A stretch of 59,767 bases of DNA, filler included, from Bipalium vagum (Eukaryota): assembly GCA_037834085.1 (NCBI GenBank). It is 3 parts of 3 records of this genome, joined end to end, with 100 filler letters (N's around TTAATTAATTAA, not from the genome) between each part and the next. Parts side by side here need not be neighbours in the genome. Positions count along the whole stretch, not along the records: positions 16,571 to 42,375 come from JBBMKC010175472.1; 2 more parts are not named here. The stretch is one strand, 5' to 3'. This document shows positions 26,460 through 58,100 of the stretch, piece after piece; position 1 is the stretch's first letter; every line of letters begins with the position of its first letter. The notes beneath the pieces are model-generated. The model was not told where the DNA came from, did no database searches, and saw nothing but the letters and a program-made list of their open reading frames with translations. The position numbers and the translations under genes were made by a program.

Positions 26460-29400
26460 TAATTGTTTTAATTTCATATATTTGTTTCAGTTAAATTAAA
26501 TCAATTCTAGTATTGAAAAATAATTAAAATACCTTCAGAACAAATAATATGTATTAACATTAAGAGATTTTAAGTCCATAATTTATATTTAAATCACAAA
26601 TCATTATTTTCAAGTAAATATATTTAGTACACCATAAGATTTTAAATTCTTTAACTTTAAATTTTTTAATTTAATTAAATTATTTATTTATTGATTTAAT
26701 TAAAATTCCAAATTGAATGGCTTAATATTATAAAGACACTTAACGAAAGACTTATTAATTTTAGTTAAGAGATAAATATTTGTATAACTATTTGGATCAT
26801 TATAAATTATTGTAAATTTTGTTATTATAATATTTAATAGTATATTTAGTAGTATATTATTATAATTTAGATTATGAATTTTGTAATTATACTTATAAAT
26901 ATTGATTATATAAAAAATATTTGAATATATTCAAAAAAAAGTTTTCAATGTCAATAATCACATTATAGAATGTTATTATTATCAGAAATATGCGATATTA
27001 AATATATTAATAAAATAAAACAATTATATAAATCTACAATTTGAAAAATTGGAAATTAAATTGCAATTGAATTTTCGTTATAATATCGAAAGATTTTGAA
27101 CACAGAAATTTGTCTGCTATTTGAGTTTTGAGTCTCAATGCAAGACTTCAACTATTAAATATCACATTACTGGTGACAATTATTAAACAGGGTCTTCCAA
27201 AAGAAGCTTTACAACTTTAAATCGCTATTTCTCCGTACATAAAAATTAAAAAACCAAGTAATTTTATTTATACCTTTATTTATACACAGATATTAAAAAA
27301 ATTATATTTTAAATATGATGTCATTAAAATTACCGCCTCTGGCAGCCTTACAAGTTTGGGCTATTTTTATGGAATTTTGCATAACATTTTGGCATAAGTC
27401 AATTGAGATTATAGCGATTTTTTCCGAAACGTTGTCTTTGAGTTGTGTAATAGTTTTTTGTTGATTAATATAAACTTTATCTTTTAGATATCCCCATAAA
27501 AAATAGTCTGGAGCCGTCAAATCGGGAGATCTGGGAAGCCAATCGACATCACCGATACGTGAGATCACGCCAGATGAAAAAGTTTCGTGAAATAATGCAA
27601 TTTTTTTCCTATTTGTATGGGATGTGGCATCATCTTGCTGAAAGTAAATATTCTCCACATTAAAATCATTCAGATAAGGCTTAAGGAATGTTTCTATCAT
27701 GTGTTGATATCTCTCTCCCGTTACTGTAACTGTTTTACCTGCAGAATTTTAAAAAAGTATGGACCAATTACACCTCTTGCCCATATTCCACACCATAAAG
27801 TAACTTTTGGCAAATGTAATGCTTCTTCCTTCAAAACATAGGGTTGCCTTGTTGCCCAAATTCGACAATTTTGTTTTTTAAAAACACCTTAACTCAAGTG
27901 AAAATGACTTTCATCAGTCATAATTTTTGTTACCAAAAATGAGTATAAGGAATTATAAAGATTTTACGTAATATTAATAATTCAGTAAAATCAATAATTG
28001 AAATTGTTTTAATTATTGATTTTTATGAAAGTGCAGATATTTTGAAATAAATAAATTTTAGTAGTTATTCAGCTTCTTATGGACTTCGAACAAGTTAACA
28101 ATGAGGATACAAAATTGATCTTTCTAAGAACCAATGACAATAATTCAGGAGACTTTGATGGTCTGATTCTTTAAGCTTGTGAACTACGGTAAGCTTATAG
28201 GCTTTCATATGCTAATCTTCATGCATTATCCGCAACAAACTGGATTTTGAGAGTCTTTATTCCTGTGCTCTATGACTGATTGAGGTGCATTTATTGTCTT
28301 CAATGCTTTCTAGTGTACTTGCAATATTATCAGGTATACGCGCAGATCGAGGTGGTCCAGATTTTGGTCTATCTGCTATCGAGCCAAATGCCTCAAAAGC
28401 ATTAAGGAGACTGTAAATTGTTGGTTTTGATAGACATTTATTTTTCCTAAATTTTGCATTTAATTTTTTAACGGTTACTGAAATTGAACTACCACTTTGA
28501 AAAAATATTTTGACAATTTTGGTCGTTGTTGCATATTATAACGATTCATATTTAATTTTCAATTTTTTAGCTAGAATAAAGTTAAATATTAACTTATTTA
28601 AACTAAAACTACTTAGTATTTAATATGTTAAAATAGTAAAGCTTCTTTTGGAAGACCCTGTATTTAATATTATCAAGAAATATTGTCAAGGCATCGTCAA
28701 AGAATGTTCAAGATTATTTTGTACAATTACAAATTTTTTACTGTAACCGCTATCACATCTAACATTTTCATGATTTAGTTCCGTTTGATTTTATCCTGTT
28801 TTAGGATATGAAAAAATGAGTTGCAGGTAGAAAATTTCACTCAAATTCTAACTTCTTTTTTTGAAGGAAGTGCCTATTTTGATGATTTTGAATAAATTCT
28901 ACTATAAAGAATGAATAAAGAAACTTGAAAACCGTTATAATAAATTTGCTTTGTGTAGAGATTATTTTGAAAAACAATAAGATTTTTTAATATAGAAATA
29001 TCTTAATCTGAGTTTTATTTTTCACGAACTTTTTGAACCGCCATCTTAGTAAAATTACTAAAGTCTGCAAAATGTTGATACAAAGTAACTGTTTTATATT
29101 ATTAAGCTATTAAACAAAACTAAACTGGAAAAATATACATATAGAGAAAACATACCTCAATTTCCGAAATACAATGTAATCTTAATCCTTGCCAAAATGC
29201 CATATAAGGCAGTAAAAGCCAATAGTTAGCTCCATTACAATAAACGTGTACCTCTTCAATTTTGACACAGATCATTACATCTAATAGTTTGTCTTCTGAG
29301 AATTTAATGTTATAATTAAGAAATTACCATCAATCACATCATCATCTAATTTAGAACGAACTATATCATCTTTTCGAGTGATAAAAATATCGAAAAATAA

Positions 29401-29694
29401 ATAATTGAACAATTCAAGGGATCCAGAATTAAATTTGCTATCTATACCTGAAAGAGATTTTCTAAATAGGATTATAGTAATAAAGTACGATTATACCTAA
29501 TATTATTAGAAGAGCATCTAGATTTTTAGCTTTTATAATTTTTTGGATTTTATTTAAACGTTGACAACTAAGAAAATGTAACAATATATAAAATAAAGAA
29601 TAAATGAAATACTCTACCTTAAGAAGTTGGAAAACAAATTTTGCTTTATATCTTGCCTTTCAAATTTTGGTCGTCTTAGTTTAGTTAATGGCAT
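17694..29694 (-). CDS. DNAAF9: DNAAF9 / C20orf194 / Shulin orthologue (outer-dynein-arm packaging factor), 5' half only
   Basis: Phase-consistent exons 29694-29618, 29567-29497, 29447-29328, 29280-29156, 26022-25929, 25869-25788, 25735-25687, 24435-24358, 24309-24205, 24154-24096, 24042-23913, 23826-23742, 21732-21699, 19956-19872, 18916 to about 18770 (internal structure unresolved), 18305-18151, 18077-18010, 17951-17834, 17788-17694. Motifs SCQRLNKIQ..LDALLIILGIDSKFNSG, VHVYCNGANYWLLLPYMAFW, EKFKMNAFVEM, VENWPIIQSFA..GFFT, EPVISYYKH, PFVLCG, KHLIVKVVS..ARTLF and LGSVVFAETF are colinear with recalled human C20orf194 (GIDSRYNEG, HLYCNPVN..LLPYVAHW, VEKWPIVQAFA, LGSVVFSESF). Confidence 0.9.
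20150..21060 (-). mobile_element. degenerate Tc1-like element inside a DNAAF9 intron
   Basis: MGK..TDVTHGKINALKEEGYSDRDI (Tc1 HTH) from the ATG at 20909, GRKK linker and IIFSDET; frameshifted and internally deleted; ends approximate. Confidence 0.7.
22800..23050 (+). pseudogene. decayed OTU-like cysteine protease fragment (possibly TE- or virus-derived)
   Basis: NDDNNCFIW, then FSQIINFNVNIYD..NLIYYGND...*HYEV with stops; resembles the OTU D.NC / I.IY / L.Y...HY pattern. Confidence 0.3.
27188..28660 (-). mobile_element. rosa/Visitor (DD41D) Tc1-mariner element in DNAAF9 intron 4
   Basis: TIRs cagggtcttccaaaagaagctttac / gtaaagcttcttttggaagaccctg; FQQDDATSH...WLPRSPDLTAPDYFLWG with 41 residues counted between the 2nd and 3rd D; AT-rich insertion at about 27935-28105. 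Confidence 0.92.
28690..29048 (+). mobile_element. mariner 3' remnant
   Basis: HDLVPFDFILF*DMKK*VAGRKFHSN matches the (SP)DLAPSDF.LF..LKK.LAG..F.SN C-terminal motif. Confidence 0.6.
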
Positions 29695-32039
29695 ATTTAT
29701 ATAATGATATAAAATTGATTAAATAAAACTATTGGTAATAGCTTTCTTTTGGCGCCCTTGACAACAGTATAATTATTAAAACACAAAATCTCATTTTTTT
29801 AAAATTAAGTTTTAATTTATTTATGATCTAAACTTATATGTTTTAATATTTAATATTAAAGGAAAAGTTAAATGAAAATTATTTTATAGACTTAATGAAA
29901 ACATTTAAATAATTTTAATTTTAATTCTTTTATAATATACTACTTTAATTTAATTTTAAAATAAATTATTGAGTCAAAATAGTGTAGTTAAATTTTGTTC
30001 ATAAATTGACAAAAGTTTATGCAAAAATGATTTCAAATTATTCAACTGTGCATAAGCCAGAAATTAATTTTTTTTATAAATCTTAGTGCTAAATTTATAA
30101 TTACAACATCATACAAGTAGCAAGAAAACTTGACCTCAATCTTACAGATTTTATAGTAAAAAAACTATTTTTCTTAAGGTTTAGTTTATGATTCATGCCG
30201 ATGAAAATAAGATTCAATATAATTTTACTTTAATATCGTTTCCTAACAAATTATCTATGTTCGTTGACAAAGGTAACTATCAATATACTTAATCTCAAAT
30301 TTCAGACCTTCAATATTTTGATGAGATGTAAATATATGTTATACAGTAATGATTCTCATTAAAACAAATTTAGAATTAATCTTTTAAAAAATTTTCTCTG
30401 ACGAATTGTTTTTATCGGGGTGCGAATAATTCTATCAAATTATCATAAATATCATATATTAACAAAAAATGTAAAAATTATGGGATTAAGTGATTTGCAG
30501 ACTAGGGTTGTTCTACTGATTTGTGACCAACTCAACACAATGATTTCAAACTTTAAAAGGTTAAAAAAACAAGGTTGCGGTTTTTAATGATGTGTTTGTA
30601 AGTAAAGTTTACAACTTGTAAAAATGATAAAAATAGTATTTCCCAAACTCTTAGTTTAATTATGATTCTAATTTAAAGACAGGGGATCTTAAAGTTAGTC
30701 TAGGTAAGCCCTTAGAAAAGGAGATCTGAAGGATAATCTCAATTTTCAACAAGATAGAAAGATTTATTTGATCCACTATTACACAAAGAAAGTACACCTT
30801 GAGTATTTATTTGTTGGATTTTGAAGTTTATAAACAGCTCATGCTTAATTGTAAAATTTAAGGAGATCGGTACCGATAAAATTTTAATTTAAAAATTAAC
30901 TTTATTATAAGACCGTGAACTTTTATAGATCTTGTTATTTAATTAATACAATTTAAAATGTACCTTTTTCTAAATCATAAGGATTTCGGAAGAAGTTTGA
31001 AAAATAAAATAATGGAACTTACGAAATTTACCTGAATTGTTAAAAAAATTAAATTAAAATTTCATTGACGAATGTCTAATTTATATCTGTCCAAGCTTTA
31101 AAGGTGTTCGATTGAAATTCTTGAAATTTCTTCGCAATTCAAATTCTTTGTAGTTTTTTCGCTTTGTTTATTCGCGATGAATTGTTTATTTGCTTCTGTG
31201 TTTTTTGTTCATTTTATTTGTAAAAGTAAGTTTTCTTCGACTTGATTGGTTTCTGATATTCTAAACTGTTTTTTTCCTTTTTCTGTTTTTGATTTTGTAA
31301 TTGTTCTCTCTTTTTATTCATCGGGTGCAGGCTAACATGGGGATACCTTCAGTGAGACAACTGATCGTGTGCGTCTCAACTGGAATTCAACCCACTTTCC
31401 TGGTCAAATCTAGGGCGCTACACTGTTTCTGATTAGATTCAACCACATGACATCTTTTCAGGTAGTTAAAAGACCATATTAGAATTGGACTCAGATTTCT
31501 GGTCAGAAGGCATTGATTCACGATTATTCATTATCTCAAATCCAGCTAATAGTCCAGGATCCTTTCCCAAATTCCCTACTTTTTTTGAGGCCTGGTTCCA
31601 GAAGTGGCAAAAATCCCTCACCTCCATTCTTTTGTAAATATGAGAATCATGGATAGAAAGTTCACAAACCATCTTTCACTTTCCAACTGCAAAATTTTCC
31701 TTTCTTCAACTTACTTGACTTATCATTAAATAATAAAATAAAAGGGCAAACACCGTATAGAAAACCATGATAAAAGGTCTGTCAAAAGAACACTATACCT
31801 ATGTATTTTACTACTTATTTACATAATAGAGAATCAGTTATGTGTCCCCATACATAATAGACAACATAACTGGTGCATAAAAACACCTACTCATTCAGTA
31901 TTCGAACACGAAACACTGAATAAAAAAAAATTAATATCAGTTACACACCCCATATATATGTAAGTGTATTACCGATGCAAATAAACACCTAGGTAGAAAA
32001 TACTTTATGAAAATATTGATAATGATATAGAGTTAAATA

Positions 32040-32540
32040 TAGATAAGAATATCAAGAAAGAGAAGAAAGTATAAGAGAATAAGTTAATCCGAATGGGTTC
32101 TTTATTTGCTGGGGATCGTAGAAGTTATGGGTTCAGAAGAAGAACTATTGTTATGAATCTGTAGAATTGAGGTGGTATTCCATTCGACATTCACAATATT
32201 TGTTTTGTAAACTTGTTGGAGACCAGTCAAGCACTTATTTTGAGAATTCTGCAACACTTCTCCACTATTAAATGTTCTGGTTGATTCCAACGTTTCTTAA
32301 CCAGAGTTTTAAATTTGTTAATCTTCCTTTTTTTGTTTGCAATATTTCAATAAGATCTTTTTTGCATTTTTCTGCTTGGTGCCACAAACTACTTTATGAC
32401 GATTCTCAGGTTTGGTAACTGTGTTAAGATCCTAAGAGGGTGGTTAAACAGATGTTATAGGTTAGAGCTTAAATTTAACTTAGGTCTCAACGGTTGAAGG
32501 TTGCTTTAGGTTGTGTTCGATTAATTGAATAAATTGAGAA
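32040..32540 (-). mobile_element. internally deleted Jockey-type LINE remnant
   Basis: SSLWHQAEKCKKDLIEILQTKKGRLTNLKLWLRNVGIN resembles the Jockey-clade RT C-terminus (W..A.K....I...Q...R.ITN.PW..RN); preceded directly by a leader also found at 42476. Confidence 0.5.
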
Positions 32541-33989
32541 AACGATTTCGATTTAATACTTTTATTAGAAAATTAGAAATTATTATCTTTACAAATGAGT
32601 GATAACAATTCTGACCAGATGTGATTTTATTAATTAAGATTATTATTCATAAAAATCCTCTCGTTCTTAGGCTCAGAGGTCCTCGGTAAAGAAAAACAAA
32701 TATATTTCACCGCCCTACTTAGCGTGTGAAATACAAATAAAAAAACGCACGAACTTATGAATCAACTCAATAATTAATAATACACAATGAGAAATCTGAT
32801 CTCTGGATCAGATAAGTGCTTCCTCTTTTACCACCTTTTCTTTACTCAAAATATTTTTTGACCTCGCAAGTTTAATAATAGAGTGGCAAACCAATATTTT
32901 AAATACTCAGGACCACTAAGCGAGTGGAATCTTTTCCTTCTTTACTCTTTATTTTATTAATGGTTCAACGATAATTTTGTAAAGTCTGTTGACACCAAAA
33001 TATATTTACAACTTTCCTCTGTGTAAACAATGTTGTATAATTTGAGATTAAAATTATTCTGAAAATGAATTTTACTTAATTGATTTCTATTGATCGTCGA
33101 GCACCACTAGTAAAGTCTTCATAAGTTAATTCATTTAACTCTGATTCCCATGTCACAGCTACACAAAGTTTCAAAGTTAACAAAATTATTAAAATTACCT
33201 TATCAAAAATAAAAGATTAAAAAAATGGATATTGTTAAAATTATAAGTTATTATATTATATTATTTATTATATCTATGTCGGTCATTGATCACATTTACT
33301 ATGGTTGATTTATTTTGATCTTGTTATTTAAACAAATTATTTTTAGGAAAAAAGAAAATTCCTCATATTTGTTTTTCCATAGAAGAACAATTAATTTTTT
33401 TAATTTTTATGGATATTTGTAGAAACATCTCTGGTAAATTGAAGTAATATTATTTTAATTAGCTCAATGTTTTCCTGTTATAGCTCACTGATTTTCCAAA
33501 ATTGAAAACAATTCATATTGATACTTATCAATTACAGATCAATAATATTATGTTATTTTTTCTAATTAAAAAAATTAAATTAAAAAATTTTATGAATTAA
33601 TTTAAATACTTAAGTTTTTATGACATAAAAATATTTTTTTAATAAAAATATTAAATAAAGTAGTTACTATATAAACTTTAAAATATATATAAAAACAATT
33701 TTCTACTTAAATTGATAAATAATTATTTTGAAAATATTTCCATAAAAGTTCTTAGTTTCTAGCTATATTTTTAATTATTTAAAAAATATTTTTCCAGAAA
33801 ATTTTTATTAAAAACGTTATAATTGTATAAATTAGAAAATTTTTTTTGAGCTTAGGCAAAAATCTGTAATGATAGGAATGGATCTCAGTTAGATATTTCA
33901 ATTCTAAATCTCAAATAACTTTATTTTTCGATCTAATTAAAAACGTAATGATTAAATTTTCATTGTCAATTAGGATCAAAATGTTATTT

Positions 33990-36289
33990 TCATCCGAAAC
34001 GTAATTCCGAAACAAATGGCCCATTAAATCGATTATGGTGGGGCTTGTTGAAATTCTGCTGCAGAAACTCTCCCAAACTCATCGATGCCCTTTTGTAAAA
34101 TTTTCTCTGTTGTAAACCTAAAAATAAAAGGTTTTTCGTCATTTCATTTATTTTAAAAAGTTATTCTTTATATATCACTTAATAATTATATAAACAAAAA
34201 TGGCATTATAATTTTTCTGCATTGTAATTATATAAGTCATATAAATTATTTTCTTTCGATCACCAGATATCCTCATAGTTTCTTCCATAAATTATTATCG
34301 AATTATGTAATTCAATATATATGTCTCACCAGTTCTAATTTTTTACACAAAATTTCACGAAATTTAATTTCGATTCTTAGACAGGCACTGAAATAAATTA
34401 TAAATTACAAATTAATTTTTTTTCTTCTATTAAATATAATTTCATCAGAAACATTAAATAGTTAAAATAAAATTAAAACGTTTTAATAACCAAAAATGGT
34501 ATTTATTTCTAATTATAAATTTACAAAAGAAATAAAATAATTAAAATTTAATAATTTATATATTTAAATTTTTATTATTGAATGAATAACAACAACAACG
34601 TAATTAAATTTCAAAAGCATTTAGCTAACTATTTATAAAATGTAATAAAATATAAAATAATTATGAAGAAATATCTCATTGGTCTTATGGGAATTGATAT
34701 ATTTTATAAAAGGTATATATATATATATATATTTTCATATAATGTATTAATGAAATTAGCGTTCTTTCTAGACATGTTGTTGTAAATATTTTATTATTTA
34801 AAATATAAAGATCGGGATGGATTAGTGTTTACTGTGATCGTCCGATTATAATATATTGACAATTATTTTTCAGTGGTAATTGCAATAGAATTTGTCGTTT
34901 TAAATCTCTCAGCACTTAATAAAATGGGAAATAAAAATTGAAAATATAATTTATTACATAATTATTCCCTTTATATACATTTGTAATAGTTATTTTATTT
35001 ATTTATTTCAAAACAATCCTGAAATTACGAAATATATTAATTTATATTTATAAAATAAATTATTTACAATTATTTAATAAATCATCTTTTGATGATATTA
35101 TTTATTCAATTTAAATAAATAAAATTTTAAAATATATAAATTTTTTGAGGTTTATTAAAAATTCTCTAAAAAGGAATAATACCGAATTCATAAAAAAAGT
35201 CAAAAAACAAATTGAAATATAATAAATATTGGAATAAATATTTGAAATTTTGATCTACATTATTCTACATGTCCCCCCTTTGGTTTGAAATAAGAATGAC
35301 TGATTTATATTATTTATTATCGTTTTTTTATCTTTTGTTCTTATTTAAAACTAATTTTTTATAATAGTAAATTTAATTAATAATTTCAAAAATATTAATT
35401 TTTAATTTTTTAATTTATTTCATAAATAATTCAATTGATCTTCATTTTATTCCGCGATTTCGAAATAAATTAATTTGTTGTGTATTCCTGAAGACCGAGT
35501 TTGATGATGAATATCTTTCCTTTAACAATCACACTTAAAATTATTGATTTTCTATTTATCATTAATATTGATTTTTACCTGTAATTAACATTTTTACAAT
35601 TTCATACATTAAAATATTACATATTAAAATAGGTTTTTTGCATTTAATTTTCTTAGATGTCTAATTATCTCTAATTTATAGACAAGAAAATTAAAATATT
35701 AGTTTTAAATATCAAATAAAATAAAATTTATCATATTTAACTTTTATTAGTAATTTTTTAAAAATTATAACAATGATACTATATATTAAATAATATAAAT
35801 GATATGATATATAAATAATAAAAATGATGTAATATATAATATTATTTTATTTTGTCACAAAATATCTAATTTATTAATAATTCAATCTAGAAATAAATGA
35901 AACTTTTAATTTAAAGAGTAAAATTATTTCCGAGCACAAATTTAATACTTTCCTTGATCGACTTTTAATTTACGTTGACTATTTGAAATTTCAAAAATGT
36001 GTATATCACTTTTTATTTCTCTTTGTAACAATGTATATAATTTTAAAAATATGAAAAATCTAATTTTTAAACCTTCGTTTAATATCGAATTTGAATTAGT
36101 TTCGGAATCTTGAAGAGGTTCATATACTGATGAGTAGATTATCATTAATAAATTGAAAAATATCAAAGTCTTCAGACTATCTCCAGTATGTGTATATCTA
36201 CAATAAAATTAAAATAGAAACAGTAAGAAAAAAGAATAAAAATATTTTTTTGTTTTAAAGATTCATTACGAGCTACTCAGTTTTTTCAT
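33990..36289 (-). CDS. candidate RFamide-type neuropeptide precursor
   Basis: Terminal exon 34117-33990 after the acceptor cttttatttttAG reads (G/R)LQQRKFYKR-ASMSLGEFLQQNFNKPHHNRFNGPFVSELRF-G-stop. Phase-compatible upstream exons 36289-36270 and 36197-36073 would give a hydrophobic segment and an acidic spacer; this linkage is tentative. Confidence 0.45.
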
Positions 36290-37199
36290 GTTACTTAAAA
36301 ATTATCATTCAACCATATTCTGGGAAATAATTATCACTTTTAAAAATTTTAAATATAAATTTTAAATAGGATTATTATAATAGTTATTAAATATCTAAAC
36401 TATAGTTTATTTTTGGATATAAAACATTTATTTAATAAGAAAATTTTTGAAATATTATTTTTTTCCGGAAAAATTAAATAATTACTTAGGAAAAAATAAC
36501 ATCGTCCAGGAAAATAAATTTCAAGAAAATATAAAACATTTGTCATTATTATCTCTTTTATAAAGTTTTCATTTTAAGATTTAAACCAATCAAATTTAAG
36601 ATAAAATATAATTTCTTTACATTACGGAAGTTCATTAAATTATTTACAATGTTACGTTTTAATCTAGTCTGAACCTAAATTATTTCTGGTAAATTTCATT
36701 ATGTAAATAAACTTAAGGATAAGCCAAACCTTAAAAATATTGAAAATATTCCTATAACATACAATTTAATGAAGTGTGTATCTATATAATTAATTATTTT
36801 TTAATTTAATTTCCTCGTTTATAATCATTTTATTATTGTAATCATTCAGATATCTATTCATAACCTCATTATAAATGGTAATAGAAATTACTCTTGAGTT
36901 TGTTTCAGTTACTTTTAAATTATTAATTATTTGTTTAAATTAATAAAAATTTAGAAAACTTATAATAATATAATATATGTTTATATTGTCAGATTTGTCA
37001 ATGAAATCATGCTAAGTAAACAACTTTAGATGATAAAGTAAACATTTTAGTATAATTTAAATGTATCATAATCTATTAGTAAAATATAAATATTTGAGTA
37101 AAATTATGAAAGAGATAAATTAAATTTTACTTTAATTTTAACCATTTTTTGAAATTAAAAGATATATTAAAAGATAAGATTAAAAATAACAGAATCCAA

Positions 37200-37964: not shown

Positions 37965-39205
37965 CAGGCTGCGTCAGCTATTTGAGAACAAAAATTGTTA
38001 AAATACATCGTGATAATTGTTTTAGTGGCGCTAAAATTGATTTGCAATATTTATTGATACAACATTAAATAATTATTTTTTAATTTAGAAATGGAAGAGA
38101 TAACTTTTGAATTAACATAAGAAATGAAAAGGCATGCAGTTATTGTTCCATTAGCCACCGGACACAATGACTTAAAAATTTCCAAATTTCTTAATGTGGC
38201 CAGATCGTTTGTCAATAAAATTAGAAAGGAATGTTGGCATTTGATCGAAATTTTTCCTCTATATCTAAAAGAAAAACACATTCAGACATTGTCAGAAATG
38301 TTAATTTTGTTCAAAAAGTCCAGGATGTTGTTTATGAAATTTCCGGAACATCAATGAGAGAAATTGCCCATCGACTATCGGTTTCTGAGTCAACAGTAAG
38401 ACGAACGGTACACAATTATTTAATATGCAAGTCCTACGTCATGAGAAGAAGACATTTTGTATCAGCGAAGAGCAAAAAAATCATTTAATGAAGTGTCTTT
38501 TAAATAAAATCAAGCATCCTGATCATCCAAACATGCTTTGGTACTTTTCTGATGAAAAACGTTTTACTCAAGATCAACAGGTTAATAGGAGGAACGATCG
38601 ATGGTTGTGCTCCAGTGTTTCTGAAGTTCCTAATGCTATGCACACCAAGTTTCCATCATATTAAATGATATTGGGTATTGTGAGCAACGAAGGTCATGTT
38701 ATCCCTCCGTATTTCTTTCCACAGGCACTTAGAATTAATGTATCTCTTTGTGTCGAGTGTCTGAATACCTATGTGAAGCCCTGGGTTGAAAAAGTTGCCG
38801 ATGGAAGGCCTTATGTTAAGGCTTTAAGCTCCCAGACATACAGCATTAAAAACATGAAAATGGTTATTGCTAAATTTTAACGACAATGTCACTCCAAACC
38901 TATGGCCACCTAGCTCACCCGATTTAAATCTTTTGGACTATTTCGTATGGGGCGTCGTAGAGACGGAGACGAACAAACATCCTCATAATACCAAAGATTC
39001 ATTACTGGCTTCTATAAGTTCTGCTATGATAAATATGAACAAAAACCATTTGATCGCGGCTTGTAAGCTTTTCAGAAGCCGTCTTGAAGCTGTAATTGAC
39101 ACTGAAGGCGATTTTATTGAATAAATAAAACTTGTGTACTTAAAACAAATAAAGTTTCTAATATTGCTTATAAATATACATTCTTTTCATTAAAAATATT
39201 ACTTA
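37965..39205 (+). mobile_element. maT (DD37D) transposon, right end lost
   Basis: TA then CAGGCTGCGTCAGCTATTTGAGAAC; WYFSDEKRFTQDQQVNRRNDRWL, TKFP, GIVSNEGHVIPPYFF, VKPWVEKVADGRPYV and WPPSSPDLNLLDYFVW are Bmmar1/maT signatures; frameshifted. Confidence 0.88.
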
Positions 39206-50900: not shown

Positions 50901-53900
50901 TAAGCCTAAATCGAGCAGGCATCGGTCAATGAGTCTTGAACTGATAAAAGATGCAGTTGCATCTAATCAACAAAAAGTACAATACAATTATCACAGGAAC
51001 TAAATATTACTGCTACAAGTGTGTTTCTTGATCTAAAAATGGTTGGAGCACGCTATCAGAATCGTCTACAAATACCTCACGATTTAAAACCTGAACAATA
51101 ATAAACAATGGAGTCTGTGTAGTGAACCACTGGTCCCTGTCGTTAAGCAGTCAAGGTTAAAAAAAGTTCTGATTTCTGTATTCTGGAATTATTCAAGACG
51201 GTCATCAGATAACCTCTGAAGTTTATTGTCAACAGTTAGATCGTATTCACGAATTGATGCAACAACGTTATCAACAATTAATCGACAGAAAATGTTTCCT
51301 CTTGCGACAGAATAATTTAAGGCCACACATAGCTAAAAAAATGGTAAAAATAGATGAACTTGTTGAATTTGAACTAATTTTTCATCAAGCATACAGACCA
51401 GATCTAGCACCAACTGATTACCATTTCTTTCGCTCTATGGGACATTATCTGGTAGGAAGGTATTTTATAAATGAAAACTTTAAACGAGGGTGCCAACAGT
51501 TCTTTGATTTAAAAAACCAAGAGTGGTATACAGCGGGCATAAAATTACTTGTCGAAAAAGTGGGTTGAGCATAATGGAGCATATTTTCGTGACTAAAATT
51601 TGCGTTTTCAGCTTTATTATTGAACTTTTAATATTGTTTCTCATACTAGGTTGTCCGGATAGTCTTTGTGCATAATTATTTACTAATTTTACAATAATAT
51701 TTTAAAGTTAATTACATTTTGTTTTGTTAGTTATATTATTTTAAAGTGCGATTTCCATATAACGTAATATTATTTAAAAATTTAGAGACATAAATTTTTT
51801 AAAAAGATAGATCTAGCCTGAAATGAATGAAGATAAAAGAGTAATTCGTGTACTATTGCACCATTATTGGAAAAAAAGGGGCAAGTGCTAGGCTTTTACT
51901 TAATCATCATGATAACGCTCCTACATACCGCTAAACAGAAATTGAAGGAATTATGGGAAATAGAAGTTTTACCGAATCTTAATTACAGTTCGGATATCGT
52001 ACCACCAGATTACGGCTTATGGCTGCTTTCTTACGTGGTCGGTAATTCAATAAATTTAACGAGATACAATCTGCATGCCAGGAATTCTTTACTTCTAAAT
52101 CGAAGTAATGGTATCGGCGACAAATTGAATTGCTTGCAGAAAGGTGAAAGGCTGTCATAGAAAATGATGGTTTGTATTTTGAAGAATGATGCCATTTTGT
52201 TTTTGTTAAATAAATGTTGACTTTATGTAGACAACCTGGTAAAATTAAAATGATAGATTATCTTTGGAGCAGCCTAATATTTGTGAATTGTAATAATACT
52301 GATAATATGACTGTAACTAATAATTATTATTTATTATTATTACAATTATTATTATCCTTATTTTTATTATAATTATAATTACTATTATTACAAAGTGCAG
52401 TTTTTTATTTAAAATTGTCTTTTCTTAAAAGGTTTTATTCAACTATATTCAGTTTCCTATTGATTTAGGCAGCTTATTGCGTTTTGTTTCATTCGGATAC
52501 TTATCAGGCCCAACAAACCCAGCCAATGACGTTGCAGTGGACTGTCTTTCTTCAGAATGTGTATTTCTGATACTAAAACTGTGCCTACACACAAAAACTA
52601 AAGATTCCTACAAAAAATCTTTCATTGCTCTCTTTGATTCTACGCTGTGCAAAGGTTTTCCTATAATTGTAACGCTATAGAATAAGTTAATTTTTCCAAT
52701 CAGAGAAACAGTCGTCAGAAAAATGTGACCAATCTTCCGACTCCACATTAGAAATGTCATTTGGGAATTTGTTGCAAGCCTTGTGTTCCAATTTTGTTGA
52801 AGAACATTTTGTTTTGCTGTTTTACTTATTGATTCACATTAACATCAATTTCCGACAGCACGTTCTGTCAAGAGAACATTTCAAAGACATTGTAACGTTT
52901 TTTGCTAGTTTTCATTTTCCAATGATTTTGACTTTTTGTATTTTTTCCCTTTTGCAACATTTCAGATTTTGCCCTTAATCAAACTGGTCTACAATTATCA
53001 ATCTGATGATTCCAATTCCGTTTACATGGCGCTGATAATTTTATTGATTATGACGGAAAACAGTTATTTCAATTCTTCTATTCACCGGGAAACTGTTGAT
53101 TATGTCAGTTGGATCCGAGAAAAAACCATAACCAATATCAGTTTGGGTAGCATCATTGTTTGGATTTTGTGTCGAGTGATCCAGTTCAATTTTGGATACG
53201 TTGGAGTAATTTTGTCCTCACTGAGTTTTCTTACAGATATATAACAATTTCGATTTTAGGATCGATATATCCACATAAATTGTCTGGCTGCATTGGCGAA
53301 CATGTCTTCGAAATTTATCAATCTTCACCCGGTTGCCAGTGAACAGTTGATGGTGTAAGTGACTTGTTATTGTCTTTTTATTATTTACATATTGTACATT
53401 ATGATATCTTGAGTGAATAAGTATGTGACAGGTTTGTACATCTTATACTTGTACATTTCGGAAATTCGACCAAAAATCAAATATGATCTCTCTTCGAGAA
53501 CATGATTAAAAATCAAATTTGACAAAAACAGTTTTTCTCGATTTTAAAGTTGGTCGCTGATTGGATTATACTTTCGATAAATGAAACTCCATCGTGATAA
53601 TAATAGTAGTAATAAATAACAATGAAGTGTAGTTTTTATATCGATATTGATAATCAAAGGTCCGTAATGACGAATTAAAGGTCCCAGTTGAGGTTAACCA
53701 TTTTCAGAGTGCCTATGAATTGTCGGTAAACTTTGGTGTCAGCAAACAATGTTAAGTAATTTAGTTCAAATTGGAAAGGTGAAAAAGTCTGATAAATGGA
53801 TTCAAGATGAACTCCATTAAAAACAGAAAAAAGGGTTTACAAGCTTTCTCGACAAAAATCTGATCAATTTTTTAATCCAATTATCATTTGTGACGAAGAA

Positions 53901-55136
53901 TGGATAATACATGACAACCTTCAGCACAATGGTTTGACAAAGATGAACCAGCGAAGCACGACCAAAATCGTAATATTCATCAAAAGAAGCTATTAGTCAG
54001 TGTTTGTGTGACTCTTAGTGTATGTGTGACTCTATGAATTCATGAAACCGGGCTTCACGATCACGTCATTAATATACTCTAACCAACCTGACAAAATGAT
54101 GTAAAAAAGAAAACAGAAATTATTAAAGAGTTATGAAAAGTATAAAAGGAGCGCAAAAAGAGTACATAGACAGACATTAAAATCAATTCGACGCTAATTT
54201 TTAAAAATTTTTCTCAGAATATTGTCTGATCTGAAATTAGTGGCCATATGGTTTTTAATCGGTTGGAATATATCAAAATCTATTTCTCAATTGACATATT
54301 GTTATTGATTTTTTACTGTTAAATTGTCTGTTCTTTTTATTTACCATTCTCTCATTATATGTATATATCTCGAGAATAATTTTTTATTATTGATTTATTC
54401 GTGCCTAGTCTCCTGAGTCTTTTGGTCAAACGAAAGGAACTATTATCAAAAAAGTTGAAAACTGTCGATGAGAATGAAGACAGTGAAAATTTATCCAATC
54501 TTGTAAGCTTTTTTTATTATCGACTGTTTCTTAATATTGTTCACTAATTTGTCAAAGGCCAACAATTTTTCCATTATCGAGGAGATTCTGCAAATGTTTG
54601 TGGAAATAATAAATACGGCTTTGATATTTAGTCTGAACAACAACCCCCACATGATACACACGTTTTTATATCACCGAAAGATCTTTTCAACTCTCAAGGA
54701 CAGTCCTGTTACCCAAGTAATCTCTTTGTCTCAGTAATTTTCTTGCTGTATTTTACTTGTTCTTTTTCCCCATCCCGAACCGAACAGAATCACGCTGGCA
54801 ATATCGATGCGATTCTGACTTATTTTTCTTCTAAAATCGACAGCGAGCTGGGAAAATCGGCCTCTTCTCAAAGCGAGGTTCTAAAAGTCATCAAGAAATA
54901 TTCTCCTGCCATAAACAAGTTGAACAATTTCAAAGTGATGAGGATTTTCAATATTTATTTTTAATCAATCATCAATTTTGTTGTTGTAGAGATTTCCAGA
55001 ATTGAAATTTAAATACATTGAACAGGAGTCGGCAGACGAATTCTTCATTCCATACATTTGGAAATTGTTGTGCAAGAAATCTCTCATATATTTCAAGAAC
55101 GGAAATGCCGGTTTTCCTACCAGTTCTCAGTGCTAA
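44909..55136 (+). CDS. DYM: dymeclin (Golgi-associated, DYM/HID1 family), 14 exons, about 654 aa
   Basis: Exons 44909-45048, 45091-45249 (donor slightly uncertain), 45340-45443, 45491-45557, 47544-47660, 48714-48835, 52469-52654, 52704-52891, 52966-53205, 53260-53354, 54409-54502, 54558-54716, 54788-54934, 54990-55136 are GT-AG and phase-consistent, summing to 1965 nt. Motifs: MG..(myristoylation-type Gly2)..[78 protein letters not shown]. Confidence 0.96.
50668..52277 (+). mobile_element. mariner (DD34D), internally deleted, in DYM intron 6
   Basis: TIRs ttgggttgttccataagtaatctaccatttt / aaaatgatagattatctttggagcagcctaa, TA on both sides; [24 protein letters not shown] and [17 protein letters not shown]. 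Confidence 0.88.
51646..52239 (+). mobile_element. deleted mariner of a second family, nested in the 50668-52277 element
   Basis: Ends ctaggttgtc / gacaacctgg, each flanked by TA; HHDNAPT and [12 protein letters not shown] motifs. Confidence 0.78.
53428..54110 (+). mobile_element. mariner 5'/central remnant in DYM intron 10
   Basis: [14 protein letters not shown] (WVPHEL), [21 protein letters not shown] and [10 protein letters not shown]. Confidence 0.8.
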
Positions 55137-58100
55137 CAATTTCCACTTCTCGTGTTGTACAGACGTCCATGAAAAAAAATGTTTTCCAAATCGTCAAAAA
55201 GGTTTCGGCTTTGTTTTCAATGTCTTTGATTTATAAATATAAATAATATTTTTTAAATTATTTTAGAATTGAAAATCTTGATATTTTTCCTATTTTGATT
55301 ATCGAAACCAATTTTTTTGTTGAAAGAGTTTAAGATATATGCGAGTCTTTACTATTTATAGGAAATTTCTTTTCATTGAATTATACTATAAGATATATAA
55401 ATTATACTTACAAGGTGAGTAATCAGACTGGGAAATTTTTAATTTTAAGATCATATTTGTTAAAAGAATGTTGACAATATTAAGTAAGCTCAAATCTAAC
55501 TATTACTTTTAATTAGTGTAACAAATCAGTCTGACCATCAATAATCTATTGAAATAGACACAATAAGTCAATTTTGATTTTACACTTTAATCCAATGAAT
55601 ATCATTAAATCAGATAAGTTAAGATATAATTAAATGATTCAGAGAGAAAAGAACTTAAGTAAAATTATGTTAATGAAATATTCAATTATTAAAACATCCA
55701 AATTTGACCAATTGCAATTTGTTCAACTATATTTAAAGTTTTGTATAAAAAAATGTATAGATGTGTGACATAATATAATGCACGTACATTAAATGTATAA
55801 CAAATATTTTTTAAAAAATTTCCCTAACTCACAGTTGGCTATAATAATATAGTAAGTATAATCACAACAGAATTCATGTTGAGTTATTGATTAATTTGGG
55901 ATATCTGCTATTGATGTTAATAAGATGAACAAACTTTGATAAAGTTAAGACAAGATTGATGCCAACGGTAATAAAAATGTGGATTTTGCTTGATGATCTC
56001 AACACAATAAAGGAATTCGAAATATCGATAAAATTAATAAATTTTGTCAGTGGATGCTATTCATTTTAAATAAAAACATGTATGCAATGTTGAACACCAA
56101 AATAATTTTTTTTAGCATAACATTTTAATTAATTAATATAAAATTCCTTAAATCTGCGAAATTTTTATAAAATAAAAAATAAATAATACTCAAAAATAAT
56201 AATAAGTAATATAGTGGTAATAGTAGGTTTTATTCATTATAGGTGTTGACATGCGTACTTGTTTAAGTTTATTATCTTAACTTTTTAAACTGAAAAAAGA
56301 TTTTAAAGTTCAAAGTATCAATTTCGAAATAATAAGAATAATATTTTTATCCTAATTTTATATCAAATTAATTTAGAATATTTCATCAATGAACGAATTA
56401 AAAACGTGTCTTAATGAACACAAATATTATCCAAAAATATATTAAGAAAGTATGATAAAAATGCAATGGTTGTCATAAAAATTTGCACTTAAATAAAGGA
56501 AAAGGTTTATAGTATTTTTGTTCTCGCCAAAAATTGAAAGACAAATATTCAAGACACAAAAATGAAATGTTCCAAAATAGTAATGCTAGGTTAATAAAAG
56601 AATATATCACATTTATAATGAAAATCAATGACATTCACAAATGTTCATGCAAAATTTAAAAATAGGAAATTGTTTTTAGAAAGTGGTTGGTAAAACATTG
56701 AGTGACATATTTTGTAGCTATATTGCTGTAAATAATTATTTCAACCTCCAGAAAAGGTCGTGTTAAATATTTATTAATAATAAGGTTTCAGACATATATT
56801 TTCAGATATTATAAAAAATAATGATCAATTCGGCTTCATTACAATATAAAAATAGATCTACCGAGATTACGAAATGCTCACAAAAAATATAAAATCAACA
56901 AAGTAATATATTTAAAAGTTCGTGATTGTCACTATTTGCTGCAGTCTGGTTTACTTTGTGTAATCCCCATCCTGAATTGTACGGATTGGAAATGAGGATA
57001 ATGACAAAACAATATTCATTCCACTTCAATTTTCACAAAACCAAGGTATTTTTCACTTGCAGTCAACATTATTCCTCCGGATTTTTCCTCTTCGATTATG
57101 AAAACGACCAAGCAATGATTGCCAGATTTTTACTTTCAATAAAAGGTGAAAATAAGAAAGCTTACCATACAAATCGTAGGAAGTTGATATTATTTCATTC
57201 AGGGAGGGGTTGCAAAAATACGATAAATAACTTGATTAACCTGAATAAGTCTGTTGTAATTAGATTGTTAGCGTACAACCAACCTACTTTTCCAAAAATA
57301 TATTACTATACAAAACATTAATGAACACATTCATCTAATATTGGTTAATCTTTCATTTTTTATTATTGCAACACAAAATACCATTGATCTAAATAAAAAA
57401 ATAATAAACGCTTTAAACATTATCTTAAAATAAATAATTACAAAAATATAAAATTATAAAAACCTTAAACATTATTTTTATTTTAAAAGGAATAATTTTC
57501 AATGATAATTATAAAATTAAGAAGATTCATTTTGAGGTATTCCTATTATTCAATGAATTATTTTATTAATGAGTTGTCAAAACCAAAATTAACCGATGAT
57601 CAATAATAACAATAACGATAATAATAAATTAAAATTAAAATTTCTGTCTATTAAGAAGTTATAACCATAATCAGAACGTTAGAAATATTTTACCTTAACA
57701 ATAATCATATAAATTACAATATTAAAGAAAAAAGCTACTTACAATGAAAACATTATTACTAAAAAATTCATGATGACTGACAAATCAATAAAGAAAAAAT
57801 CCCTTCCAAAAAAGGAAGTCAGCTAACCAACCAACTGGATTCGAGACATCACAAATTTTTTCTTCAAATAAAAATAAATTTCAATAAAAAAATACACAAA
57901 ACTTAATACTTTTACACAATACTTCGTAAGGAAATCCTCTTAGGGAGGATCAAATCAAAAATTGAAAATAAAAATGCTATTCAGTACTTTTTTGTTGAAC
58001 TAAAATTATTTAAAAAAAATACTAAAAAGTAGCTTTGCAAAAGAAGTGTGAAGACTTTCATGAATTCAACCAAAAACAATTCCAAAAAAGGATGTCCCAC

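What the first reader, a model, noticed from the sequence alone, without database searches (positions are those of the whole stretch)
33990..36289. Hidden candidate RFamide neuropeptide gene (…KR-ASMSLG…GPFVSELRF-G-stop)
Seen: a GC-richer island of about 130 nt follows a strong acceptor. One frame contains a dibasic KR site and ends RF-G-stop, where the composition drops back to AT-rich. The ORF track misses it. Upstream phase-1 exons could supply a hydrophobic segment (TLIFFNLLMIIYSSV) and an acidic spacer. Known: KR cleavage plus a C-terminal Gly is the convertase/PAM amidation signature, and single C-terminal RFamides occur in myosuppressin and QRFP/26RFa precursors. Inferred: a 31-aa amidated peptide (or FNGPFVSELRF-amide after monobasic cleavage). 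Its AS..LG start and G.F.S..RF end loosely recall 26RFa. Caveats: a second frame (FTTEKILQKGIDEFGRVSAAEFQQAPP*) is also open; the hydrophobic stretch could be intronic if an internal acceptor is used; RFG-stop alone can occur by chance in 60 kb.
Basis: partly seen in the sequence, partly recalled or inferred. Interest (0 to 1): 0.7.

Follow-up and report, generated by a model that had tools for sequence, protein, structure and literature searches.

The report
Unannotated land-planarian RFamide neuropeptide gene
A small single-copy gene, predicted to have three exons, in a land flatworm likely encodes a secreted hormone precursor that would release one long nerve-signalling peptide ending in RF-amide and unlike the planarian peptides I could compare it with, but no RNA or related genome was available to confirm it.

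Summary
The assembly is a geoplanid land planarian (COX1 94% identical to Bipalium adventitium; Schmidtea-like NPY genes). A codon model trained on this genome picks only two exons in the 4.3 kb around the finding, 36197-36073 and 34117-33990. Their phases fit, and with a 20-nt ATG exon they give a 90-aa precursor: hydrophobic core, acidic spacer, KR, 31 residues, Gly-stop. The last exon scores like the genome's own NPY exons. RFG-stop alone is chance-level (0.52 per window). The full pattern arose in 0 of 150 shuffled windows and not once in 304 kb of other loci. The RF frame beats the second open frame by 6-14 bits, which does not exclude it. No RNA holder, paralog or homolog was found, and the databases are thin for triclads. 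The peptide fails the defining features of QRFP, kisspeptin and NPY, and matches none of 51 Schmidtea prohormones. Verdict: probably (about 0.72) a real, unclassified flatworm RFamide precursor. The 26RFa likeness is not supported by sequence, though Schmidtea has two GPCRs BLAST-labelled as QRFP receptors.

The parts
36270..36289 (-). Predicted first coding exon (ATG plus 17 nt, ends in phase 2). Least certain part: an alternative short ATG exon just upstream also ends in phase 2
   Evidence: Sequence; too short for the codon model (+3.2 bits); inferred
36198..36269 (-). Predicted intron 1, 72 nt, GT...AG, T-rich
   Evidence: Sequence; inferred, no RNA
36073..36197 (-). Predicted exon 2: rest of the signal peptide (hydrophobic core about 36166-36137) and Ser/Asn/acidic spacer; enters in phase 2, exits in phase 1
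   Evidence: True frame +6 to +15 bits, other frames -5 to -41; found by an unguided exon scan; 10-residue hydropathy 2.89 against 2.56-3.8 for the first-Met NPY precursors of 9 loci
34118..36072 (-). Predicted intron 2, 1955 nt. An alternative phase-1 donor at 35973 keeps the same frame and would give a 123-aa precursor
   Evidence: Coding score peaks at the 36072 donor; the read-through stretch scores -11 to -22 bits against intron; inferred
33990..34117 (-). Predicted last coding exon (GC-richer island) with KR, mature peptide, Gly and TGA
   Evidence: RF frame +17 to +23 bits in four models; single copy
34089..34094 (-). Dibasic KR, predicted prohormone-convertase site
   Evidence: Sequence; cleavage inferred from known PC2 processing in planarians (PMC2953531)
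33996..34088 (-). Predicted 31-residue mature peptide ending SELRF-amide (3646.8 Da monoisotopic). A possible 11-residue form (34028-33996, 1310.7 Da) would need cleavage at a single Arg
   Evidence: Computed; processing is predicted, not observed
33990..33995 (-). Gly codon (predicted amide donor) followed directly by TGA
   Evidence: Sequence; Gly-stop endings also close Schmidtea npp-3, npp-4, npy-7 and spp-4
33920..33925 (-). Possible AATAAA polyadenylation signal 65 nt after the stop
   Evidence: Sequence; weak, since the hexamer is common in AT-rich DNA
34033..34116 (-). Rival open frame (27 codons, then TAA), reached only through a phase-2 splice

Best explanation
This is likely a three-exon gene for a roughly 90-residue secreted neuropeptide precursor of a geoplanid land planarian, predicted to be cut at KR and amidated at its terminal Gly to give one 31-residue RFamide. 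Shown by the sequence: the acceptor, open frame, KR, RF-Gly-stop, an upstream open hydrophobic stretch in a compatible phase, and single-copy status. Inferred steps: (1) splicing of 36289-36270, 36197-36073 and 34117-33990; (2) entry into the secretory pathway through residues 1 to about 30; (3) PC2-type cleavage after KR; (4) PHM/PAL conversion of the terminal Gly to an amide, with no carboxypeptidase trimming needed because the stop follows Gly; (5) possible further cleavage at the single Arg to an 11-mer; (6) release from neurons onto a rhodopsin-beta GPCR, most likely of the RFa/RYa group (NPY/sNPF/NKY-receptor-like), as a modulator of muscle, feeding or reproduction like other flatworm RFamides. 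It belongs to no named family by the tests run.
For: Taxon: COX1 reads with table 9 and is 94% identical to Bipalium adventitium; NPY precursors at 9 loci closely resemble Schmidtea's. Codon model: 10,034 kinase codons, 222 of 224 held-out pieces given the right frame. It scores the last exon +20.6 bits in the RF frame against +8.0 and +6.2. An independent GPCR-trained model gives +17.1, +6.5 and -1.2. An unguided exon scan returns only these two exons between 37300 and 33000, in matching phase, and recovers DNAAF9 exons as a control. The last exon's GC by codon position (0.44/0.32/0.44) and score lie within the range of the genome's NPY exons (GC3 0.31-0.51; 11.7-37.8 bits per 125 nt). In 400 shuffles of the 3 kb upstream, 7 gave a phase-1-exit exon and 0 gave one with a hydrophobic core. 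The full terminal pattern: 0 of 150 shuffled windows and 0 in 304 kb of real loci. The downstream DNAAF9 gene has its own ATG at 29694, so the island is not its missing exon. No repeat, RNA family or fold explains the island. Copper monooxygenase domains of the PHM/DBH type are present on two contigs (not shown to be PHM). In the ESM Atlas, 6 of the 10 rows shown were peptide-hormone families (0.77-0.84), a lead only.
Against: No homolog in any search, although planarian NPY peptides are strongly conserved. The control exon of neighbouring DNAAF9 found only 1 protein, so this blank is weak. It matches none of 51 Schmidtea prohormones. Much of the last exon's coding score comes from GC content: 1,755 of 20,000 shuffles of the same 125 nt reached 20.6 bits, and against a frame-free coding background it scores only -1 to +2. 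Over the shared 82 nt the kinase-only model ties the two frames (14.2 against 14.3). Hydrophobic cores are common by chance (20 of 67 intronic open frames). The core starts at residue 18, against 2-14 in the NPY precursors, and exon 2 GC3 (0.24) is below their range. The exon-2 donor (AAG|GTTT) is non-optimal; a similar donor is inferred in dymeclin, but my donor matrix was small and held at least one false call. Test criteria were set after seeing the candidate.
Confidence: 0.72

Rival explanations
1. A real gene, but the last exon is read in the second frame through a phase-2 donor (35948 or 36029), giving a small secreted or membrane protein ending QQAPP; RFG-stop is then 3'-UTR coincidence.
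For: The frame is open for 27 codons and ties with the RF frame over 82 nt in the kinase model; phase-2 GT sites exist in the open read-through of exon 2.
Against: Whole-exon parses favour RF by 13.8, 10.2 and 12.4 bits and by about 6. It needs 43-124 nt more of exon 2 that scores as intron. It leaves the GC-rich last 43 nt, ending exactly at the RF frame's TGA, unexplained. No Pfam hit.
Confidence: 0.09
2. No protein-coding gene: a GC-richer non-coding island (regulatory element, decayed transposon scrap or pseudo-exon) and an unrelated AT-rich open stretch line up by chance.
For: RFG-stop is chance-level; the SELR[F/Y]G-type pattern occurs 152 times genome-wide against 154 for the control; GC content explains much of the coding score; no homolog; a 440-Mb genome offers thousands of windows for a rare coincidence.
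Against: Two separate events each absent from their nulls (0 of 150, 0 of 400) agree in strand, order and phase. The island begins at an acceptor and ends at the stop. It is single-copy, unlike the window's transposon pieces.
Confidence: 0.12
3. The precursor is real and amidated but made in gland or gut cells rather than neurons, for example as a fast-evolving, lineage-restricted secretion that acts on prey or other worms.
For: No homolog found; land planarians are predators (general knowledge); neuropeptide-mimicking venom peptides exist (PMC13311285, search listing and abstract start only); some Schmidtea prohormones are expressed in adhesive glands and intestine.
Against: Single copy with no paralog expansion; about 85% (44 of 51) of Schmidtea prohormones are expressed in the CNS; nothing in the sequence points to glands.
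Confidence: 0.07

Closest known systems
Flatworm amidated prohormones (Schmidtea npp-3, npp-4, spp-11 RFamides; Collins et al. 2010, PMC2953531)
   Same: Short precursor, signal peptide, acidic spacer, KR sites often preceded by Tyr, Gly amide donor; npp-3 also ends RF-Gly-stop.
   Different: Those carry several short peptides (4-8 aa); this has one 31-residue peptide with no sequence match to any of the 51.
Planarian NPY/NPF (Smed npy-1 to -11, and this genome's own copies)
   Same: One long amidated peptide per precursor, about 30-40 aa, ending RF/RY; npy-3, npy-4 and npy-10 also have a spacer and KR before it; npy-7 ends Gly-stop; same codon profile.
   Different: No RXR (GRPRF) ending, no intron in the terminal Arg codon, no aromatic residues at the NPY positions, Pro and Gly in the would-be helix; not among the 14 PF00159 hits.
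QRFP/26RFa
   Same: Single long C-terminal RFamide; lophotrochozoan QRFP-type receptors have no known ligand (PMC4062910, PMC8557429), and two Schmidtea GPCRs carry that BLAST label.
   Different: 31 rather than 25 residues; 0 of 4 conserved positions; no PF11109 hit.
Spiralian NKY, and sNPF/PrRP-type peptides
   Same: NKY is one long peptide (up to 43 aa) ending LRY-amide; PrRP is a 31-mer RFamide with a shorter form; sNPFs end in a hydrophobic-RF/RY amide.
   Different: Lacks the Trp/Pro/Gly-Tyr N-terminus of the one NKY sequence I saw printed (10.1101/712687); protostome sNPFs are short and mostly multi-copy; PrRP follows the signal peptide directly with a phase-1 intron inside the peptide, whereas here that intron lies 10 codons before it.

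Membership tests
Amidated neuropeptide precursor (general) | N-terminal signal peptide | tested here: inconclusive
   Hydropathy core 2.89, within the NPY range, but late (residue 18) and dependent on the inferred first exon; SignalP not available
Amidated neuropeptide precursor (general) | Dibasic convertase site before the peptide | tested here: met
   KR at 34094-34089
Amidated neuropeptide precursor (general) | Gly amide donor after the last residue | tested here: met
   RF-Gly-TGA at 34001-33990
Amidated neuropeptide precursor (general) | Spliced mRNA, neuronal expression and detectable mature peptide | not testable with these tools
   No RNA run was available to lay
QRFP/26RFa | 25-residue peptide with Leu4, Ala8, Lys18, Gly20 | tested here: not met
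   Features from PMC4062910; aligned from the C-terminus the candidate has Gln, Asn, Pro, Val at those places, and 31 residues
QRFP/26RFa | Match to Pfam PF11109 | tested here: not met
   No Pfam hit at E up to 10; the genome search gave one other locus at E 9.95
QRFP/26RFa | Activates a QRFP-type receptor | not testable with these tools
   Receptor not identified in this genome; Schmidtea GCR403 and GCR446 are BLAST-labelled only
NPY/NPF | C-terminal RXRF/Y-amide | tested here: not met
   Ends ELRF; not a PF00159 hit
NPY/NPF | Phase-2 intron in the terminal Arg codon | tested here: not met
   Arg-Phe-Gly-stop are contiguous; the genome's NPY genes at 9 loci all have a GT donor there (feature)
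Kisspeptin | Two Asn at 7/8 and 5/6, and Phe/Trp at 3/4, residues from the C-terminus | tested here: not met
   Features from PMC4062910; the candidate has Pro/Gly, Val/Phe and Glu/Ser there. Planarians are reported to lack gamma-group rhodopsins
sNPF / Smed npp-4 type | Short peptides, usually several copies per precursor | tested here: not met
   One long peptide; no match to npp-4
NKY | Single long peptide ending LRY-amide with a conserved aromatic/Pro N-terminus | tested here: inconclusive
   Length and LR-aromatic end fit, N-terminus does not; compared by eye with one printed oyster sequence only; flatworm NKY sequences not seen
Myosuppressin/myomodulin | Spiralian form: multi-copy peptides ending RL/RM-amide | tested here: not met
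   PMC8557429 passage; Smed mpl-1 and mpl-2

The most novel reading that the evidence does not exclude
It is the missing spiralian ligand of the orphan QRFP-type receptor: a single long C-terminal RFamide, as in chordate QRFP precursors, diverged beyond sequence recognition, with Schmidtea GCR403/GCR446-like receptors as partners.
Probability: 0.07. Interest if true: 0.8.

Novelty: new member of a known kind. Interest (0 to 1): 0.42.

Why it matters
If real, it adds an unclassified single long RFamide to the flatworm peptide set, a form otherwise seen there mainly in NPY/NPF. Planarians have many orphan peptide receptors: 16 NPY-receptor-like genes of which only some are true NPY or sNPF receptors, and two QRFP-receptor-labelled GPCRs. 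A new ligand makes deorphanisation directly testable, including the open question of what activates lophotrochozoan QRFP-type receptors. The more ordinary outcome is one more lineage-specific planarian peptide, or an ortholog of a flatworm npp gene in lists I could not see.

Tried and rejected
RNA: no RNA holder listed, only one other run, X1. Homologs: 2 candidates, none at E up to 10 among proteins of 73-2000 aa. The only hit among 1.84 billion representatives was a tandem-repeat protein, rejected. No PDB match. One metagenome locus was the antisense of a 46%-GC bacterial-type gene, rejected. Paralogs: none; exon 2's second hit L088 is chance; the degenerate pattern search ran at control level, 152 against 154, and none of the 30 of 152 loci inspected resembled the gene. 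The ESM Atlas gave no usable hit for exon 2. My early idea of a frameshift between the two frames was dropped, because NPY exons here also have high GC3 and the RF frame fits end to end. Splicing of the island into DNAAF9 was rejected. Structured RNA: Rfam 0 hits, folding z 0.05 and 0.34. The bacterial promoter scan was irrelevant. The automatic donor matrix (12 auto-called plus 8 NPY donors) is noisy, and the script stopped early. The 30 GPCR loci fetched were used only as training and null data; no QRFP-type receptor was identified in this genome, so no complex or structure was predicted. Earlier scan notes gave no look-alikes.

Full report
Setting. The finding lies in the second stretch of the pack (16571-42375), which is the whole of contig C175472 of a 441-Mb, 272,664-contig assembly. 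COX1 matches read best with table 9 (AAA as Asn). The type that a degraded copy (L005) resembles is 94% identical to Bipalium adventitium, then 87% to Obama nungara and 82% to Arthurdendyus triangulatus. NPY precursors at 9 loci closely resemble the Schmidtea ones. The animal is therefore a geoplanid land planarian. A second table-9 COX1 and a third, different one are also in the assembly. DNAAF9 is single copy, which suggests one main nuclear genome.

Observation. The described features are all on the minus strand. The island is 42% GC against 17-21% in its flanks and is the only such island in 4.3 kb. It starts right after a T-rich AG and its phase-1 frame runs through KR and 31 residues to RF-Gly-TGA at 33990. 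A second frame is open for 27 codons. The DNA and the peptide are single copy. In one search the upstream kilobase matched elsewhere only through an AT-rich intronic part.

Is it coding, and in which frame? I trained a three-periodic Markov model on 26 kinase ORFs of this genome (10,034 codons). It picked the right frame in 222 of 224 held-out 126-nt pieces and scored DNAAF9 exons +9 to +27 bits. The last exon scored +20.6 in the RF frame, +8.0 and +6.2 in the others. A model trained on 28 GPCR ORFs gave +17.1, +6.5 and -1.2, and complete parses favoured RF over the second frame by 13.8, 10.2 and 12.4 bits in three models. Against this, the kinase model ties the two frames over their shared 82 nt, and 1,755 of 20,000 shuffles of the exon reach the same score, so GC content supplies much of the signal. 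The exon's codon-position GC and score fall inside the range of the genome's NPY exons.

Gene model. An exon scan without guidance returned, between 37300 and 33000, only 36197-36073 (phase 2 in, phase 1 out) and the island (phase 1 in). A 20-nt ATG exon and a 72-nt intron complete a 273-nt frame of 90 codons plus stop. Two variants (105 and 123 aa), using the later phase-1 donor at 35973, keep the same peptide. In 400 shuffles of the upstream 3 kb, 15 gave any exon, 7 a phase-1 exit, and none of those a hydrophobic core. A hydrophobic core alone is weak evidence (20 of 67 intronic open frames), it starts later than in the NPY precursors, and exon 2 has low GC3 (0.24). The donor AAG|GTTT is non-optimal; dymeclin in this window appears to use a similar one (inferred). 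The scan also offers a weak donor inside the Arg codon at 34000, which would make the island an internal exon. But DNAAF9 downstream has its own ATG exon at 29694 and a second exon matching Pfam positions 17-49, and the GC-rich tract continues to the TGA.

Chance. RFG-stop alone: 78 in 150 shuffled windows. With a 35-codon open frame: 1. With KR: 1. With an acceptor: 0. The broader R[FYLM]G-stop gave 266, 13, 2, 1 and 0 after the coding filter. Real loci: 0 full matches in 194,046 bp (80 loci, 30 of them picked for an ELRF-like pattern; 8 own-locus and mitochondrial loci left out) and 0 in 110,380 bp (31 loci). The criteria are post hoc and the genome holds some 7,000 windows of this size, so the terminal pattern alone would not convince. 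The independent agreement of exon 2 raises my estimate to about 0.72.

Mechanism. Shown: the sequence signals. Inferred from established prohormone processing (convertase, then PHM and PAL; PMC7284817 passage; pc2 in planarians, PMC2953531 passages): secretion, cleavage after KR, amidation, and release of a 31-mer (3646.8 Da) or, after cleavage at a single Arg with no nearby upstream basic residue other than a Lys five positions back, an 11-mer (1310.7 Da). Two contigs carry Cu2_monoox_C domains, not resolved as PHM or DBH/TBH. The likeliest receptor class is the RFa/RYa group of rhodopsin-beta GPCRs (PMC8557429 passages). Schmidtea has 16 NPY-receptor-like genes (PMC4862687 passages), of which four are reported as NPY and four as sNPF orthologs (10.1101/712687 passages). 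Function (muscle, feeding or reproductive modulation) is by analogy only.

Comparison. I read Tables S4 and S5 of PMC2953531 in full: none of the 51 prohormones matches by eye, though four end in Gly-stop with RF, RY or RL. SPP-20 and other peptides in PMC4825013 (passages; 1 of 2 supplement files) do not match. The 47-peptide schistosome table was not found in the text held. Fasciola supplements (12 of 13 files) held no LRFG, GPFV or ELRF. A full-text search for five motif strings gave 231 papers; the 30 listed were unrelated. The lists of McVeigh 2009 and Koziol 2016 and bioRxiv supplements were not seen, so a described flatworm ortholog is not excluded. QRFP, kisspeptin and NPY each fail their defining features (PMC4062910 and PMC7314547 passages; Pfam). 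It works like a single-peptide RFamide precursor, but is a member of none of these on present tests. Also consulted: PMC13551398 (part 1 of 4), PMC5818035, PMC6114109 and PMC10783048 (passages).

Homology blanks. Searches of 5.8 billion proteins, 1.84 billion representatives, the PDB and JGI metagenomes found no true relative. As a control, a DNAAF9 exon from the same contig found a single protein, 88% identical, so triclads are thinly covered and the blanks say little.

Verdict. The boldest reading left open is a ligand for the orphan spiralian QRFP-type receptor. Reviews of 2014 and 2021 list that receptor as unmatched, and the GPCR table of PMC4862687 labels two Schmidtea receptors that way by BLAST. 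I put that at 7%.

Noticed in passing
window 29694 to about 17700, minus strand: DNAAF9 (C20orf194) gene with its own ATG and many short introns, single copy; a synteny anchor for finding the candidate in relatives.
   Followed up: partly
window about 44910-55200, plus strand (third stretch): Divergent multi-exon dymeclin gene (Pfam PF09742 hits).
   Followed up: partly
L002, L003, L004, L005: The assembly holds two different table-9 (flatworm-type) COX1 genes, a third COX1 of another kind (possibly prey or contaminant; untested) and degraded copies, one resembling L003.
   Followed up: partly
L007-L019: At least ten NPY/NPF precursor loci resembling Schmidtea npy-1, -3, -4, -5, -6, -8, -9 and -10, with two copies each of the npy-4-like and npy-6-like genes.
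   Followed up: partly
window 35440-35530: A faint GC-richer patch inside predicted intron 2, non-coding by the model, unique and unstructured; possibly regulatory.
   Followed up: partly
window 36290-36320, minus strand: Two very short upstream ATG frames; one could serve as an alternative first exon with a phase-2 donor.
   Followed up: no
window 27300-28600, 38090-39130, 42890-43830, 50870-52260: Decayed Tc1/mariner-like transposase pieces; the last two have Pfam DDE/HTH hits, the first two are by eye. Retroelement-like scraps also flank the candidate at about 31300-32700 and 39200-42375 (by eye).
   Followed up: no
P0122 (relative of window 29156-29293): An 88%-identical DNAAF9 fragment on a 1,246-bp contig from an ENA source shows that DNA of a related worm is in public data.
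   Followed up: no
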